Assembly: GCF_009914755.1 (NCBI RefSeq)
Contig: NC_060927.1
Strand: one strand, 5' to 3'
Length of the DNA: 64,000 nucleotides
Origin: the human T2T-CHM13v2.0 reference genome, Homo sapiens
Every line of letters begins with the position of its first letter. Position 1 is the first letter of the stretch. Shown piece after piece: positions 33,822 to 61,639 of the stretch. The notes below the pieces were generated by a model. The model saw nothing but the letters and a program-made list of their open reading frames with translations, had not been told where the DNA came from and did not search any database. The position numbers and the translations under genes were made by a program.

Positions 33822-36800
33822 GGGGGTGGAGCCAAGATGGCCGAGTAGGAACAGTTCCAGTCTACAGCTCCCAGCATGAGCGATGCAAAAGACGGGTGAT
33901 TTCTCCATTTCCAACTGAGGTACTGGGTTCATCTCACTGGGGAGTGCCGGACAGTGGGTGCAGGACAGTTGGTGGTGCAGTGCACCCTGCGTGAGCCGAA
34001 GCAGGGCGAGGCATTGCCACACCCGGGAAGCGCAAGAAATCAGGGAATTCCCTTTCCGAGTCAAAAAAAGGGATGACAGACAGCACCTGGAAAATCCCGT
34101 TACTCCCACCCTAATATGCGCTCTTCCAACGGGCTTAACAAATGGCACACCAGGAGATTATATCCCGCACCTGGCTCGGAGGGTCCTACACCCACGGAGC
34201 CTCGCTCATTGCTAGCACAGCAGTCTGAGATCAAACTGCAAGGCGGCAGCGAGGCTGCGGGAGGGGCGCCCACCATTGCTCAGGCTTGAGTAGGTAAACA
34301 AAGCAGCCGGGAAGCTGGAACTGGGTGGAGCTCACCACAGCTCAAAGAGGCCTGCCTGCCTCTGTAGGCTCCACCTCTGGGGGCAGGGCACAGACAAACA
34401 AAAGACAGCAATAACCTCTGCAGTCTTAAATGTCCCTGTCTGACAGCTTAGAAGAGAGTAGTGGTTCTCCCAGCATGCAGCTTGAGATCTGAGAACAGGC
34501 AGACTGCCTCCTCAAGTGGGTCCCTGACCCCCGAGTAGCCTAACTGGGAGGCACACCCCAGTAGGGGCGGACTGATGCCTCACACAGCCGGGTACTCCTC
34601 TGAGACAAAACTTCCAGAGGAATGATCAGGCAGCAGCATTTGCAGTTCACCAATATCTGCTGTTCTGCAGCCACCGCTGCTGATACCCAGGCAAACAGGG
34701 TCTGGAGTGGACCTCCGGTGAACTCCAACAGACCTGCAGCTGAGGGTCCTGACTGTTAGAAGGAAAACTAACAAACAGAAAGGACATCCACACCAAAAAC
34801 CCATCTGTACGTCACCATCATCAAAAACGAAATGTAGATAAAACCACAAAGATGGGGAAAAAACAGAGCAGAAAAACCAGAAACTCTAAAAATCAGAGCA
34901 CCTCTCCTCCTCCAAAGGAACGCAGCTCCTCACCAGCAACGGAACAAAGCTGGATGAAGAATGACTTTGACGAGTTGAGAAAGGAAGGCTTCAGAAGATC
35001 AAACTACTCTGAGCTACAGGAGGAAGTTTGAACCAATGGCAAAGAAGTTAAAAACTTTGAAAAAAAATTAGATGAATAGATAACTAGAATAACCAATGCA
35101 GAGAAGTCCTTAAAGGACCTGATGGAGCTGAAAACTATGGCACGAGAACTACATGACAAATGCACAAGCCTCAGTAACCGATGTGATCAACTGGAAGAAA
35201 GGGTATCAGTGATGGAAGACAAAATGAATGAAATGAAGCATGAAGAGAAGTTTAGAGAAAAAAGAATAAAAAGAAACGAAAAAAGCCTCCAAGAAATATG
35301 GGACTATGTGAAAAGACCAAATCTACATCTGATTGGTGTATCTGAAAGTGACGGGAAGAATGGAACCAAGTTGGAAAACACTCTGCAGGATATTATCCAG
35401 GAGAACTTCCCCAATCTAGCAAGGCAGGCCAACATTCAAATTCAGGAAATACAGAGAACGCCATAAAGATACTCCTCGAGAAGAGCAACTCCAAGACACA
35501 AAATTGTCAGATTCACCAAACTTGAAATGAAGGAAAAAATGTTAAGGGCAGCCAGAGAGAAAGGTCGGGTTACCCACAAAGGGAAGCCCATCAGACTAAC
35601 AGCTGATCTCTCGGCAGAAACTCTGCAAGCCAGAAGACAGTGGAGACCAATATTCAACATTCTTAAAGAAAAGAATTTTCAACCCAGAATTTCATATCCA
35701 GCCAAACTAAGCTTCATAAGTGAAGGAGAAATAAAATACTTTACAGACAAGCAAATGCTGAGAGATTTTGTCAGCACCAGGCCTGCCCCAAAAGAGCTCC
35801 TGAAGGAAGCACTAAACATGGAAAGGAACAACCGATACCAACCACTGCAAAAACATGCCAAATTGTAAAGAACATCAAGGCTAGGAAGAAACTGCATGAA
35901 CTAACGAGCAAAATAACAAGCTAACATCATAATGACAGGATCAAATTCACACATAACAATACTAACCTTAAATGTAAATGGGCTAAATGCTCCAACTAAA
36001 AGACACAGACTGGCAAATTGGATAAAGAGTCAAGACCCATCAGTGTGCTGTATTCAAGAAACCCATCTCATGTGCGGAGACAAACATAGGCTCAAAATAA
36101 AGGGCTGGAGGAAGATCTACCAAGCAAATGGAAAACAAAAAAAGGCAGGGGTTGCAATCCTAGTCTCTGATAAAACAGACTTTAAACCGACAAAGATCAA
36201 AAGAGACAAAGAAGGCCATTACATAATGGTAAAGGGATCAATTCAACAAGAAGAACTAACTATCCTAAATATATATGCACCCAATACAGGAGCACCCAGA
36301 TTCATAAAGCAAGGCCTTAGAAACCTACAAAGAGACTTAGACTCCCACACAATAATAATGGGAGACTTTAACACCCCGCTGTCAACATTAGACACATCAG
36401 TGAGACAGAAAGTTAACAAGGATATCCACGACTTGAACTCAGCTCTGCACCAAGTGGACCTAATAGACATCTACAGAACTCTCCACCCCAAATCAACAGA
36501 ATATACATTGTTTTCAGCACCACACCACACCTATTCCAAAATTGACCACATAGTTGGAAGTAAAACACTCCTCAGCAAATGTAAAAGAACAGAAATTATA
36601 ACAAACTGTCTCTCAGACCACAGTGCAATCAAACTAGAACTCAGGATTAAGAAACTCACGCAAAACTGATCAACTACATGGGAACTGAACAACCTGCCCT
36701 GAATGACTACTGGGTACATAACGAAATAAAGGCAGAAATAAATATGTTCTTTGAAACCAACAAGAACAAAGACACAACATACCAGAATCTCTGGGACACA

Positions 36801-37611
36801 TTCAAAGCAGTGTGTAGAGGGAAATTTATAGCACTAAATGCCCACAAGAGAAAGCAGGAAAGATCTGAAATGGACACCCTAACATCACAATTAAAAGAAC
36901 TAGAGAAGCAAGAGCAAACACATTCAAAAGCTAGCAGAAGGCAAGAAATAACTAAGATCAGAGCAGAACTGAAGGAAATAGAGACACAAAAAACCCTTCA
37001 AAAAATCAATGAATCCAGTAGCTGGTTTTTTGAAAAGATCAACAAAATTGATAGACTGCTAGCAAGACTAATAAAGAAGAAAAGAGAGAAGAATCAAATA
37101 GACGCAATAGAAAATGACAAAGGGGATATCAACACTGATCCCACAGAAATACAAACTACCATCAGAGAATACTATTAACACCTCTACGTGAATAAACTAG
37201 AAAATCTAGAAGAAATGGATAAATTCCTCGACACATACAGTCTCCCAAGACTAAACCAGGAAGAAGTTGAATCTCTGAATAGACCAATAACAGGAGCTGA
37301 AATTGTGGCAATCATCAATAGCTTACCAACCAAAAAGAGTCCAGGACCAGATGGATTCACAGCCAAATTCTACCAGAGGTACAAGGAGGAACTGGTACCA
37401 TTCCTTCTGAAACTATTCCAGTCAATAGAAAAAGAGGGAATCCTCCCTAACTCATTTTATGAGGCCAGCATCATCCTGATACCAAAGCCTGGCACAGACA
37501 CAAGCAAAAAACAGAATTTTAGACCAATATCCTTGATGAACATCGATGCAAAAATCCTCAATAAAATACTGGCAAACCAAATCCAGCAGCACGTCAAAAA
37601 GCTTATCCACC
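33822..37611 (+). mobile_element. L1PA4-like element with intact 5' end, 3'-truncated within ORF2
   Basis: gggggtggagccaagatggcc start after tttt|aagaagacaa. ORF1 34852-35868 has several stops; ORF2 from 35932 has a stop at 36667-36669 and frameshifts. Ends at aagcttatccac with no A-tail. Confidence 0.96.
35932..37611 (+). pseudogene. Disrupted L1 ORF2 (endonuclease domain open, RT truncated)
   Basis: MTGSNSHITILTLNVNGLN...SDH endonuclease in ORF 35932-36669; fragments continue to KKLIH. Confidence 0.92.
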
Positions 37612-37614
37612 GTG

Positions 37615-60495: not shown

Positions 60496-60720
60496 ATCGC
60501 GGGCGCCCCTCCCCCAGCCTCGCTGCCACCTTGCAGTTTGATCTCAGACTGCTGTGCTAGCAATCAGCGAGACTCCGTGGGCGTAGGACCCTCCGAGCCA
60601 GGTGCGGGATATAATCTCCTAGTGCGCCGTTTTTTAAGCCTGTCGGAAAAGCGCAGTATTCGGGTGGGAGTGACCCGATTTTCCAGGTGCCGTCTTTCCA
60701 GGTGCCACCCCTTTCTTTGA
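60496..60720 (+). pseudogene. L1 ORF0 with start codon mutated ATG>ATC
   Basis: Open frame (I)AGAPPPASLPPCSLISDCCASNQRDSVGVGPSEPG...HPFL stop; donors at ORF0 nt 106 and 191. Confidence 0.85.
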
Positions 60721-61639
60721 CTAGGAAAGGGAACTCCCTGGCCCCTTGCGCTTCCTGAGTGAGGCAATGCCTTGCCCTGCTTCGGTTCGCACACGGTGTG
60801 CACACCCACTGACCTGTGCCCACTGTCTGGCATTCCCTAGTGAGATGAACCTGGTACCTCAGATGGAAATGTAGAAATCACCCGTCTTCTGCGTCGCTCA
60901 CGCTGGGAGCTGTAGACCGGAGCTGTTCCTATTCGACCATCTTGGCTCCTCCCTCCCCTCTATATCTAATTTTGACATGATTCTTGAAAAGGTCTGTTGC
61001 TTCATCTGGGATTTGTTGGACAAATGTGGTCTTTTAAAAATGCTGAGCCACATGAAATTAGAGTTTCTGCCAACTCATGAAAAATAGTGGCTTCATGTCA
61101 TCTAGCTGCTTAGCCCATGCTTTCCAGAACAATTCAGTCCCTTTCTGCCCTTGAAAAAACATCACATCATACTAAATGACACCAATGCTCCCACCTCCAA
61201 ATTTAAAAGGAAACAGAAAGAGAGGTGTTGTACTAGAAGATTTAAAGTCATGCAAAACCAGGGCTTGTCCTCTGGTGAGGTCAGTCTTCCAAAGACTTTT
61301 TCACATCTCCCCTGTCCTTATGTTTCCCACGACCCTCCCCATCCTCTCAGCAGGCAACCTCAAATCTTCCTTCCTATGGCCTACAGGGCATGCCAGGCAG
61401 AGACTTGCCCCGGTGTGCAGCTGCAGAGGGAGCACTGTCTCCCTTCTCTGTTGCCTCCCCCTCCCCTTGGTCTTGCATCTTATCCCTCTCACCTTCCAGA
61501 AAAGTCTCAAGGTCACTTCTTGCTTATTCAATCTCTGTCTTTACTGGGATTTATAAACACACCCAAGTCTCTCCTGTTTTCTAAACCCCTCCTCGACTGC
61601 ATTTTCCTCCACTCATTGTCCTGCCATCCTCTTTCTCAC

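What the first reader, a model, noticed from the sequence alone, without database searches (positions are those of the whole stretch)
33822..60958. Two inverted L1s of different subfamilies share private mutations in short patches: apparent ectopic gene conversion across a MYRIP exon
Seen: L1-A (33822-37611, +, PA4-like) and L1-B (54902-60958, -, PA2/3-like) carry the same bases at six sites that differ from the consensus I recall. Sites (A/B): ORF1 accaaaCttg, V>L (35521/59372); aaccgAtacc (35835/59058); gaaatAaagg, M>I (36728/58166); ataaaTatg, K>N (36743/58151); aaatGgacac, I>M (36872/58022); atccagTagc, R>S (37019/57875). None is CpG decay and four are transversions. The copies still differ within ~6-15 bp of several shared sites (agatctgaaa vs agatccaaaa; gaaaag vs gaaagg). 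L1-A also has young-type bases near 37290-37340. Inference: repeated short-tract non-crossover conversion between fold-back-paired inverted copies. A crossover would invert the coding exon, so only conversions would be expected to persist.
Basis: partly seen in the sequence, partly recalled or inferred. Interest (0 to 1): 0.8.

Follow-up and report, generated by a model that had tools for sequence, protein, structure and literature searches.

The report
Patchy gene conversion between neighbouring L1s
Two unrelated L1 retrotransposon copies lying head-to-head 17 kb apart in a MYRIP intron share a handful of genome-rare bases in short patches, best explained by DNA being copied between them during repair, which is a known kind of event seen here in clear form.

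Summary
The six shared bases are present as described. Five are rare. They occur in 0-1 of 56 random genomic L1 copies and in 31-117 exact-context copies among about 4,600-7,700 genome-wide. The sixth (35835) is a recurrent 7% variant and carries no information.

A and B are independent insertions of different lineages. A keeps the 128-bp 5'UTR block and B lacks it. B has a poly(A) tail and an intact 15-bp target-site duplication.

No other column among 3,664 is shared-rare. Random copies carry on average 0.5 of B's rare alleles (maximum 3), while A carries 5. Four of the five lie within 292 bp.

The site-3/4 double variant is in 4 of 7,705 copies: A, B and two old-type copies. B is the only young-type carrier, which points to transfer from A to B.

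Short, patchy ectopic gene conversion is the best reading (about 0.8). Fold-back pairing and selection against an exon-inverting crossover were not tested.

This is a new member of a known kind. In passing, rare L1 variants proved to be strongly clustered among neighbouring L1s genome-wide.

The parts
33822..37611 (+). L1-A. An older-lineage L1 with a complete 5' end, cut off inside ORF2 at about 37611, with no poly(A) and no detectable target-site duplication.
   Evidence: Inverted arms. Junction sequences. No 3' part and no repeat of the 5' flank word in the window. Rare-allele load 96/3796 = 2.5%. It groups with old block-bearing copies L011, L042 and L046.
34594..34721 (+). 128-bp 5'UTR block present in A and absent from B. 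It corresponds to the published 129-bp ZNF93-site deletion that marks L1PA3short and younger lineages.
   Evidence: A has it and B lacks it; among background copies 29 have it, 23 lack it and 4 do not reach it. Passages of bioRxiv 10.1101/429613.
54902..60958 (-). L1-B. A full-length (6,057 bp) younger-lineage L1 with a poly(A) tail.
   Evidence: Rare-allele load 48/3678 = 1.3%. It groups with the oldest block-lacking copies L061, L063, L036 and L043.
54886..54900 (-). 3' copy of B's target-site duplication, AAAATTAGATATAGA.
   Evidence: Read directly. Coordinates were counted by hand from that printout.
60959..60973 (-). 5' copy of B's target-site duplication. With the 3' copy it shows B is in its original configuration, so no fixed A x B crossover.
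35502..35566 (+). Patch 1: a 65-bp A=B run around the shared rare C at 35521 (B 59372), ORF1 V>L.
   Evidence: Genome count 31 of 4,567. Sampled carriers L001 and L004 are B-like.
36698..36761 (+). Patch 2: a 64-bp A=B run holding shared rare A at 36728 and T at 36743 (B 58166 and 58151), ORF2 M>I and K>N. The inferred direction is A to B.
   Evidence: The 39-mer occurs only in A and B. The 23-mer is in 4 of 7,705 copies, and the two other carriers are old-type.
36868..36904 (+). Patch 3: a 37-bp A=B run around shared G at 36872 (B 58022), I>M. This allele is regionally common.
   Evidence: There are 117 places genome-wide, including three more L1s at C3:39.987, 40.010 and 40.045 Mb.
37008..37035 (+). 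Patch 4: a 28-bp A=B run around shared rare T at 37019 (B 57875), R>S.
   Evidence: There are 33 places genome-wide. The old-type copy L069, 770 kb away, shares it plus 36105 with A.
37241..37420 (+). Young-type segment inside old-type A. Six consecutive diagnostic columns (37241-37391) are young-type, and A-B identity is 178/180. The donor is uncertain.
   Evidence: Peers L011 and L042 are old-type here, L046 is partly young-type, and at 37296 A has G where B has T.
50975..51111 (+). MYRIP coding exon lying between the two inverted L1s. A crossover between the L1s would invert it.
   Evidence: Annotation supplied with the finding. Geometry.

Best explanation
L1-A (an older, L1PA4-like lineage) and L1-B (the L1PA3 'short 5'UTR' lineage) inserted independently, in opposite orientation, 17.3 kb apart in a MYRIP intron.

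After B arrived, homologous repair used one copy as template for the other, without crossover, at least once. Mismatch repair of the heteroduplex, or several separate events, left short patches in which a rare base of one copy now sits in both. The patches are 28-65 bp of identity and are bounded by subfamily-type differences within about 40-130 bp.

The 36728/36743 pair most likely went from A to B. The 35521 C may have gone from B to A. A's young-type stretch at 37241-37420, next to its truncation point, may be a further tract into A from a younger L1.

Shown: independent origin, rarity of the variants, the excess of sharing, its clustering, and the absence of a crossover. Inferred: the conversion mechanism itself, the directions, and the number of events.
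For: - Independent insertions: A has the 128-bp 5'UTR block and B lacks it. At 93 old/young diagnostic columns, B is young-type at 84 of 93 columns (8 old-type, 1 other) and A is old-type at all ORF2 columns up to 37175. B has a poly(A) tail and a perfect 15-bp TSD on both sides.
- Rarity: five shared alleles are in 0-1 of 56 random copies, and no other shared-rare column exists among 3,664. Genome counts are 31/4,567 for site 1 and 38, 54, 117 and 33 copies for the others.
- Excess: the 23 block-lacking copies carry a mean of 0.48 (max 2) of A's rare alleles, while B carries 5. The 29 block-bearing copies carry a mean of 0.79 (max 3) of B's rare alleles, while A carries 5. Poisson P = 1.4e-4 and 1.4e-3.
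- Clustering: four of the five sites lie within 292 bp, P = 0.005 by resampling A's 93 rare positions.
- No common lineage: the site-1, site-3, site-4 and site-6 carrier lists overlap only at this locus, apart from single two-variant coincidences elsewhere.
- Polarity: site 3 A plus site 4 T occur together in 4 of 7,705 copies, against 0.69 expected from frequencies of 98 and 54 per 7,705. The two carriers outside this locus are old-type. B is the only young-type carrier and lies 17 kb from A.
- Non-crossover: B's TSD pair is intact.
- Plausibility: neighbouring L1s in the background often share exclusive alleles without homologous flanks. L1 double-strand-break repair by conversion with endogenous LINEs, with tracts down to 13 bp, is cited in PMC1920257 (passages).
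Against: - No outgroup or population data were available, so no event is dated or directly polarised.
- The patches are very short and alternate with retained subfamily-type differences (36762, 36798, 36866, 36905, 37036). This needs either several events or unusually patchy repair.
- No long identical run marks a classical tract. No formal GENECONV test was run.
- B shows no diagnostic-level mosaicism beyond what its peers show: 8 'old' alleles against 6-9 in L061, L063, L036 and L043.
- Site 5 G is shared with three other local L1s and partly marks a sub-lineage, so only four sites bear on a direct A-B exchange.
- One distant copy (chr2:184.72 Mb) has site 1 C plus site 3 A, and three distant copies have site 4 T plus site 5 G. 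Some co-occurrence therefore arises without proximity.
- The background sample is 56 copies from chr1 4-75 Mb only, and each was chosen by an exact 31-mer match.
Confidence: 0.8

Rival explanations
1. Conversion happened, but not directly between A and B. The shared bases come from a regional pool, meaning other nearby L1s or a lost or polymorphic third copy served as donor to one or both.
For: Site 5 G is in five L1s of at least three lineage types within 185 kb. Site 6 T is also in an old-type L1 770 kb away that shares a second rare allele with A. Rare variants cluster regionally genome-wide. A's young-type segment differs from B at 37296.
Against: Within chr3 39-41 Mb, no copy other than A and B appears in the exact-context lists for site 1 C, site 3 A or site 4 T. 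The three upstream L1s share only site 5 with A and B.
Confidence: 0.1
2. There was no DNA exchange at this locus. B was retrotransposed from a rare, possibly chimeric, source that already carried the variants. Alternatively A and B descend from related rare sources and landed near each other by chance.
For: Small lineages carrying some of the variants exist. The site 3 + site 4 double variant is in two old-type copies elsewhere. Site 1 C is in B-like copies L001 and L004. Site 5 G with 36560 is in four chr15 copies.
Against: No other young-type copy in 3.1 Gb has the double variant. A and B differ at the 128-bp block and at most of the 93 diagnostic columns. The chance of landing within about 20 kb of one of three other carriers is of order 1e-5 to 1e-4 (my arithmetic from 3.1 Gb).
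Confidence: 0.06
3. The same bases arose independently in both copies by parallel mutation.
For: Each variant taken alone recurs in 0.5-2.5% of copies. Site 35835 shows that recurrent sites exist. Background pairs of related old subfamilies reach 5 or more shared-rare alleles in 26 of 1,540 pairs.
Against: The per-copy joint probability of the site 3 + site 4 pair is 8.9e-5. Five shared alleles are observed against means of 0.48 and 0.79. Four lie within 292 bp (P = 0.005). Four of the five are transversions, and none is at a CpG.
Confidence: 0.03
4. The shared bases are an assembly or consensus artefact in which reads from one L1 polished the other.
For: None found.
Against: The copies differ at 256 of 3,664 aligned columns, including differences 4-30 bp from the shared sites. 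Cross-polishing would have erased those differences too.
Confidence: 0.01

Closest known systems
Non-allelic (interlocus) gene conversion between dispersed Alu elements, including homogenisation of neighbouring Alus (Kass 1995; Roy 2000; Aleshin and Zhi 2010). Seen only as cited and summarised in passages of PMC6598467. The Aleshin and Zhi paper itself is not held.
   Same: Independent retrotransposon insertions of different subfamilies acquire each other's bases. Detection rests on mosaic diagnostic or private mutations. The rate rises with proximity.
   Different: Here the elements are 3.8-6 kb L1s 17 kb apart, whereas the summarised Alu effect is strongest below 10 kb. The evidence here is shared rare private variants rather than subfamily replacement.
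[quoted passage not shown] Known here only through its citation in PMC1920257. The paper is not held.
   Same: L1 copies serve as ectopic repair templates. Tracts can be very short; 13 bp is quoted in PMC1920257.
   Different: That was an induced break in cultured mouse cells, with donors genome-wide. Here the events are germline, fixed and inferred, in a human intron, with a neighbouring donor.
L1 recombination-mediated inversions between inverted L1 pairs (PMC2603318, passages read). It reports 21 L1-mediated inversions between human and chimpanzee, more than half over 10 kb, L1PA over-represented, and some with partial deletion of the elements.
   Same: The substrate is the same: an inverted L1PA pair tens of kb apart, with an exon between.
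   Different: Those are crossover products with chimeric elements. Here B's target-site duplications are intact, so only non-crossover exchange is seen.
Arm-to-arm gene conversion in large inverted repeats, such as Y-chromosome palindromes and F8 int22h.
   Same: Intrachromosomal exchange between inverted homologous sequences.
   Different: Those arms are over 99.9% identical duplicates kept homogeneous. A and B are 92-96% identical independent insertions with only a few converted bases.

Membership tests
Interlocus (non-allelic) gene conversion | The two sequences are paralogous copies of independent origin, not one locus duplicated. | tested here: met
   The 128-bp 5'UTR block is in A only. 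There are 93 diagnostic columns. B has its own TSD and poly(A). Homology between the arms is confined to L1 and Alu sequence.
Interlocus (non-allelic) gene conversion | The copies share derived variants that neither lineage history nor chance explains. | tested here: met
   Five shared-rare alleles against means of 0.48 and 0.79 in random copies. The double variant is in 4 of 7,705 copies, and B is the only young-type carrier.
Interlocus (non-allelic) gene conversion | There is a contiguous tract or mosaic structure, with local loss of divergence. | tested here: inconclusive
   Four of the five sites lie within 292 bp (P = 0.005), and A-B identity is 178/180 at 37241-37420. However, the patches are only 28-65 bp and are interleaved with retained diagnostic differences. 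No GENECONV test was run.
Interlocus (non-allelic) gene conversion | The exchange is non-reciprocal and leaves the flanks in place (no crossover). | tested here: met
   Both copies of B's TSD still flank B. Reciprocity itself cannot be tested.
Interlocus (non-allelic) gene conversion | The state before and after the event is seen in orthologous loci or haplotypes. | not testable with these tools
L1PA3 'short' or younger lineage (L1-B) | It lacks the 129-bp 5'UTR segment (ZNF93 site). | tested here: met
   B lacks window-equivalent 34594-34721. The definition comes from 10.1101/429613 passages. No Dfam consensus was available, so the name rests on this feature and on the ladder.
L1PA4-like or older lineage (L1-A) | It retains the 129-bp segment and carries older-type bases than L1PA3long-like copies. 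| tested here: inconclusive
   The block is present. In the ladder A falls below the block-bearing intermediate copies and next to L011 and L042. The subfamily name could not be checked against a reference consensus.
Fold-back (hairpin or cruciform) pairing of inverted repeats as the pairing mode | The exchange depends on inverted orientation or intrastrand pairing. | tested here: not met
   Among background near pairs that share 3 or more exclusive alleles, four are in direct orientation (L027/L028, L012/L013, L043/L044, L035/L036), apart from the L008/L009 duplicate, and two are inverted (L052/L053, L034/L038). Nothing at A/B speaks to the pairing mode.

The most novel reading that the evidence does not exclude
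The A/B pair may be one visible case of regional concerted evolution of dispersed L1s. On this reading, L1 copies within about 0.5 Mb of each other exchange short tracts often enough that rare variants form regional clusters across unrelated subfamilies, possibly with GC-biased spread.

The most extreme clustering is the one weak-to-strong change, T>G at site 5. Its carriers form 49 pairs within 500 kb against about 2 expected. It is in five L1s of at least three lineage types within 185 kb in MYRIP, six within 430 kb on chr10, and five within 170 kb on chr15.

If this is general, L1 'private' mutations are not independent clocks, and nearby L1s behave like a loose gene family.
Probability: 0.35. 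Interest if true: 0.65.

Novelty: new member of a known kind. Interest (0 to 1): 0.4.

Why it matters
Ectopic conversion between dispersed repeats is accepted in principle and is documented mainly for Alus and in cell-culture break repair. Clear germline examples between two L1s of different subfamilies, with a polarised tract, are less commonly shown.

The case matters modestly for three reasons:
- It shows that 'private' substitutions in old L1s are not always independent. This affects repeat-based dating and mutation-rate estimates.
- It marks an inverted L1 pair flanking a MYRIP coding exon as recombinationally active, and therefore as a candidate site for inversion or deletion alleles.
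- The neighbour effect seen in the background sample suggests the phenomenon could be measured genome-wide from a single T2T assembly.

Tried and rejected
- A genome-wide sub-lineage carrying all the variants was rejected. The carrier lists for sites 1, 3, 4 and 6 coincide only at this locus, and the 39-mer double variant is unique to A and B.
- My first claim that the double variant is unique had to be softened. A 23-mer probe found two more carriers, and these turned out to be informative old-type copies.
- Segmental duplication of one L1 was rejected, given the different 5'UTR structure, B's own TSD, and no flank homology.
- I looked for A's missing 3' part or its TSD elsewhere in the window and found none.
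- I tested B for old-type mosaicism. Its 8 old alleles are typical of its peers, so this gives no support.
- I tested whether A's young-type run at 37241-37391 comes from B. The result is ambiguous: L046 shows a similar run, and A differs from B at 37296.
- A first --keeplength alignment of the added loci misaligned non-L1 flanks and gave spurious sharing. I redid it with BLAST-trimmed fragments.
- Aleshin and Zhi 2010 and Tremblay 2000 are not held.
- The following were not done: a GENECONV run, comparison with Dfam consensus sequences, and primate or pangenome comparisons.
- Literature searches turned up no genome-wide study of neighbour homogenisation for L1. This is not proof that none exists, because subscription journals are mostly not held.
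Full report
**1. What is there**

The window holds two L1 elements in opposite orientation.

L1-A (33822-37611, + strand) has a complete 5' end. It stops abruptly inside ORF2, with no poly(A) tail and no detectable target-site duplication.

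L1-B (54902-60958, - strand) is full length at 6,057 bp. It has a poly(A) tail and a perfect 15-bp target-site duplication (AAAATTAGATATAGA) on both sides.

The inverted arms align over A's whole length at 87-96% identity. The last arm, 36698-37618, is the most similar at 96%. By segment, A-B identity is:
- 0.918 over 34722-35500
- 0.944 over 35500-36000
- 0.941 over 36000-36697
- 0.963 over 36698-37100
- 0.922 over 37100-37240
- 0.989 (178/180) over 37241-37420
- 0.953 over 37421-37611

The MYRIP coding exon at 50975-51111 lies between the two elements (annotation supplied with the finding).

**2. The observation**

All six positions carry the stated bases in both copies. The exception is 35835, which is a silent CGG>CGA change.

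**3. Are the bases rare?**

The window's own 3.1-Gb genome could be searched. Exact-context counts were:

| Site | Variant | Copies |
|---|---|---|
| 1 (35521) | C | 31 of 4,567 with any base there |
| 3 (36728) | A | 38 |
| 4 (36743) | T | 54 |
| 5 (36872) | G | 117 |
| 6 (37019) | T | 33 |

I fetched 60 random L1 copies, taken in genomic order from the chr1 listing. Four copies with under 2.5 kb of alignable L1 were dropped, leaving 56 background copies. These were aligned with A and B using MAFFT.

Of 3,664 columns where A, B and at least 15 background copies have a base, 256 differ between A and B. Exactly five columns have A = B with an allele at 5% or less in the background: 35521 (0/56), 36728 (0/56), 36743 (1/56), 36872 (0/56) and 37019 (1/56).

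The sixth site, 35835 A, is in 4 of 55 background copies of unrelated types. It is a recurrent variant and carries no information.

**4. Independent origin**

A carries a 128-bp 5'UTR block (34594-34721) that B lacks. Among the background copies, 29 have it, 23 lack it and 4 do not reach it. Published work describes a 129-bp deletion fixed in L1PA3 and later lineages and shared by the great apes (bioRxiv 10.1101/429613, passages read).

On a ladder of 253 polymorphic columns, B sits with the oldest block-lacking copies (L061, L063, L036, L043). A sits below the block-bearing intermediate copies, next to L011 and L042.

At 93 columns that separate an old group from a young group, B is young-type at 84 of 93 columns (8 old-type, 1 other). 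Its peers L061, L063, L036 and L043 show 6-9 old alleles, so B is typical. A is old-type at every ORF2 column up to 37175.

Rare-allele loads are 2.5% for A and 1.3% for B.

The subfamily names L1PA4-like and L1PA3short are my inference from these features. No reference consensus was available to confirm them.

**5. Is the sharing more than chance?**

A has 93 rare alleles and B has 47 among the shared columns. About 1.2 coincident positions are expected. Six were observed, five of them with the same base.

Empirically, the 23 block-lacking copies carry a mean of 0.48 (max 2) of A's rare alleles, while B carries 5. The 29 block-bearing copies carry a mean of 0.79 (max 3) of B's rare alleles, while A carries 5. 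The Poisson tails are 1.4e-4 and 1.4e-3.

Four of the five sites fall within 292 bp. Resampling five of A's 93 rare positions gives that degree of grouping with P = 0.005.

Against this, 26 of 1,540 background pairs also reach 5 or more shared-rare alleles. Those pairs are either members of sparsely sampled old subfamilies or physical neighbours (see section 9). A and B are not of one subfamily.

**6. Not a common lineage, and a polarity**

The carrier lists for sites 1, 3, 4 and 6 coincide only at this locus. The exceptions are isolated two-variant coincidences elsewhere:
- chr2:184.72 Mb has site 1 C plus site 3 A.
- chr2:63.10 Mb has site 3 A plus site 5 G.
- Three copies have site 4 T plus site 5 G.

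The 39-mer carrying both the site 3 and site 4 variants occurs only in A and B.

A shorter 23-mer, which tolerates decay of the adjacent CpG, finds four carriers among 7,705 copies: A, B, chr7:60.23 Mb and chrX:56.11 Mb. The single-variant versions number 94 and 50. This gives 0.69 doubles expected by chance and a per-copy joint probability of 8.9e-5.

The two extra carriers are both old-type copies, and neither has the site 5 or site 6 variants.

So the double variant looks like a feature of a small old lineage that includes A. B is the only young-type carrier in the genome and lies 17 kb from A. I read this as transfer from A to B. This is an inference.

Conversely, two of the four sampled site-1 C carriers (L001, L004) are B-like. 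This weakly suggests that site 1 went from B to A.

Site 6 T is also in an old-type copy 770 kb away (L069) that shares a second rare allele with A. That again fits an origin in A's lineage.

**7. Tract structure**

The shared sites are interleaved with differences. The identical runs around them are:
- 35502-35566 (65 bp)
- 36698-36761 (64 bp)
- 36868-36904 (37 bp)
- 37008-37035 (28 bp)

Subfamily-type differences persist between the patches, at 36762, 36798, 36866, 36905 and 37036. Either several very short events occurred, or one heteroduplex of 300 bp or more was repaired in patches. I cannot tell which.

A also carries six consecutive young-type diagnostic bases at 37241-37391, where its peers L011 and L042 are old-type. 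In that stretch its nearest relatives among 66 copies are young-type ones, with B tied for best. This is consistent with a tract into A, close to its truncation point. However, L046 shows a similar run, and A differs from B at 37296, so the donor is uncertain.

**8. No crossover**

A crossover between inverted A and B would have moved B's 3' end and one copy of its target-site duplication next to A. Both copies still flank B. The exchange was therefore non-crossover, or any inversion was later reversed.

The idea that selection removes exon-inverting crossovers is reasonable but untested. L1-mediated inversions of this size are known between human and chimpanzee (PMC2603318, passages).

**9. 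Context noticed on the way**

In the background sample, 7 of 24 pairs less than 200 kb apart share 3 or more alleles exclusive to the pair. This compares with 4 of 57 pairs at 0.2-1 Mb, 3 of 203 at 1-5 Mb and 8 of 1,256 beyond 5 Mb.

Only one near pair (L008/L009) has homologous flanks, which marks it as a segmental duplicate. Excluding it, 6/23 against 8/1,256 gives Fisher P = 4.6e-8. Both direct and inverted pairs are involved.

L038, a young-type copy, turns old-type at 36928-37487 and shares six exclusive alleles there with L034, which lies 400 kb away in inverted orientation.

The carrier lists are also clustered. Pairs within 500 kb, observed against expected under random labelling of 4,567 copies, are:

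| Site | Observed | Expected |
|---|---|---|
| 1 | 6 | 0.19 |
| 3 | 4 | 0.29 |
| 4 | 2 | 0.58 |
| 6 | 1 | 0.22 |
| 5 (first 100 of 117 places) | 49 | 2.0 |

These counts include the A/B pair. Segmental duplicates were not removed. The expected values use the site-1 denominator and the neighbour density from 100 chr1 places.

Site 5 G is in three more MYRIP-intron L1s: two old-type copies and one younger, twin-primed copy. In a five-copy cluster on chr15, one copy is young-type. The other four are intermediate-type and share a second rare allele, 36560. Site 5 G is therefore partly a lineage marker that is nevertheless regionally clustered. I cannot explain this fully.

**10. Comparison with what is known**

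Non-allelic conversion among Alus, elevated for neighbours under 10 kb apart, is summarised in PMC6598467 (passages). L1 break repair by conversion from endogenous LINEs, with tracts as short as 13 bp, and an intrachromosomal L1 conversion at one locus are mentioned in PMC1920257 (passages).

My three literature searches did not turn up a genome-wide study of neighbour homogenisation for L1. The library lacks most subscription journals, so this is weak evidence of absence.

**11. Verdict**

Short-tract or patchy non-crossover ectopic gene conversion between the two L1s is the best explanation (about 0.8). One patch is polarised from A to B.

The event is a new example of a known process. The regional clustering of rare L1 variants is the more interesting lead, and it needs a genome-wide analysis with segmental duplications masked.

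Noticed in passing
Background loci L006-L065 (chr1 4-75 Mb): Neighbouring L1 copies share alleles exclusive to the pair far more often than distant ones. The proportion with 3 or more is 7/24 pairs under 200 kb, 4/57 at 0.2-1 Mb, 3/203 at 1-5 Mb and 8/1,256 beyond 5 Mb. Only L008/L009 has homologous flanks.
   Followed up: partly
Genome places listed (for example C10:32.51-32.94 Mb, C15:95.03-95.20 Mb, C3:39.99-40.17 Mb): The site-5 T>G allele (117 copies) is extremely clustered, with 49 pairs within 500 kb against about 2 expected. The clusters contain L1s of different lineage types. This is unexplained. Candidates are regional conversion, possibly GC-biased, or local amplification of a sub-lineage.
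   Followed up: partly
L034 (C1:59.13 Mb, +) and L038 (C1:59.53 Mb, -): L038 is young-type over most of its length. It switches to old-type at about 36928-37487 (A coordinates) and shares six exclusive alleles there with L034, 400 kb away in inverted orientation. This looks like a long conversion tract.
   Followed up: partly
L008/L009 (C1:12.36 and 12.42 Mb): An L1 with the same internal insertion and homologous flanks over the whole 4.4-kb locus (95.8% identity, 26 exclusive shared alleles). This is an old segmental duplication 54 kb apart.
   Followed up: yes
window 37611-37620 and downstream: L1-A ends inside ORF2 with no poly(A) tail and no target-site duplication. The missing 2.4 kb is nowhere in the window. 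A later deletion probably removed it. The young-type stretch at 37241-37420 lies just inside the break.
   Followed up: partly
L068 (C3:40044749-40046969): This L1, 105 kb upstream in MYRIP, has an internal inversion typical of twin priming. L1 positions equivalent to 36441-37283 are in one orientation and 37291-37615 in the other.
   Followed up: no
chrX 56.11-56.80 Mb: Three L1s within 0.7 Mb carry, respectively, site 3 A + site 4 T, site 3 A only, and site 4 T only. This is another local grouping of the same rare variants.
   Followed up: no
window 18519-19249 (-) and 19527-19873 (+): Two further L1 3'-end fragments in opposite orientation, 91% and 94% identical to B's 3' end. They do not overlap the region shared by A and B.
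   Followed up: no
window 33499-34698: The RefSeq 'enhancer' feature supplied with the finding overlaps the 5'UTR of L1-A, so it is probably L1 promoter sequence.
   Followed up: no
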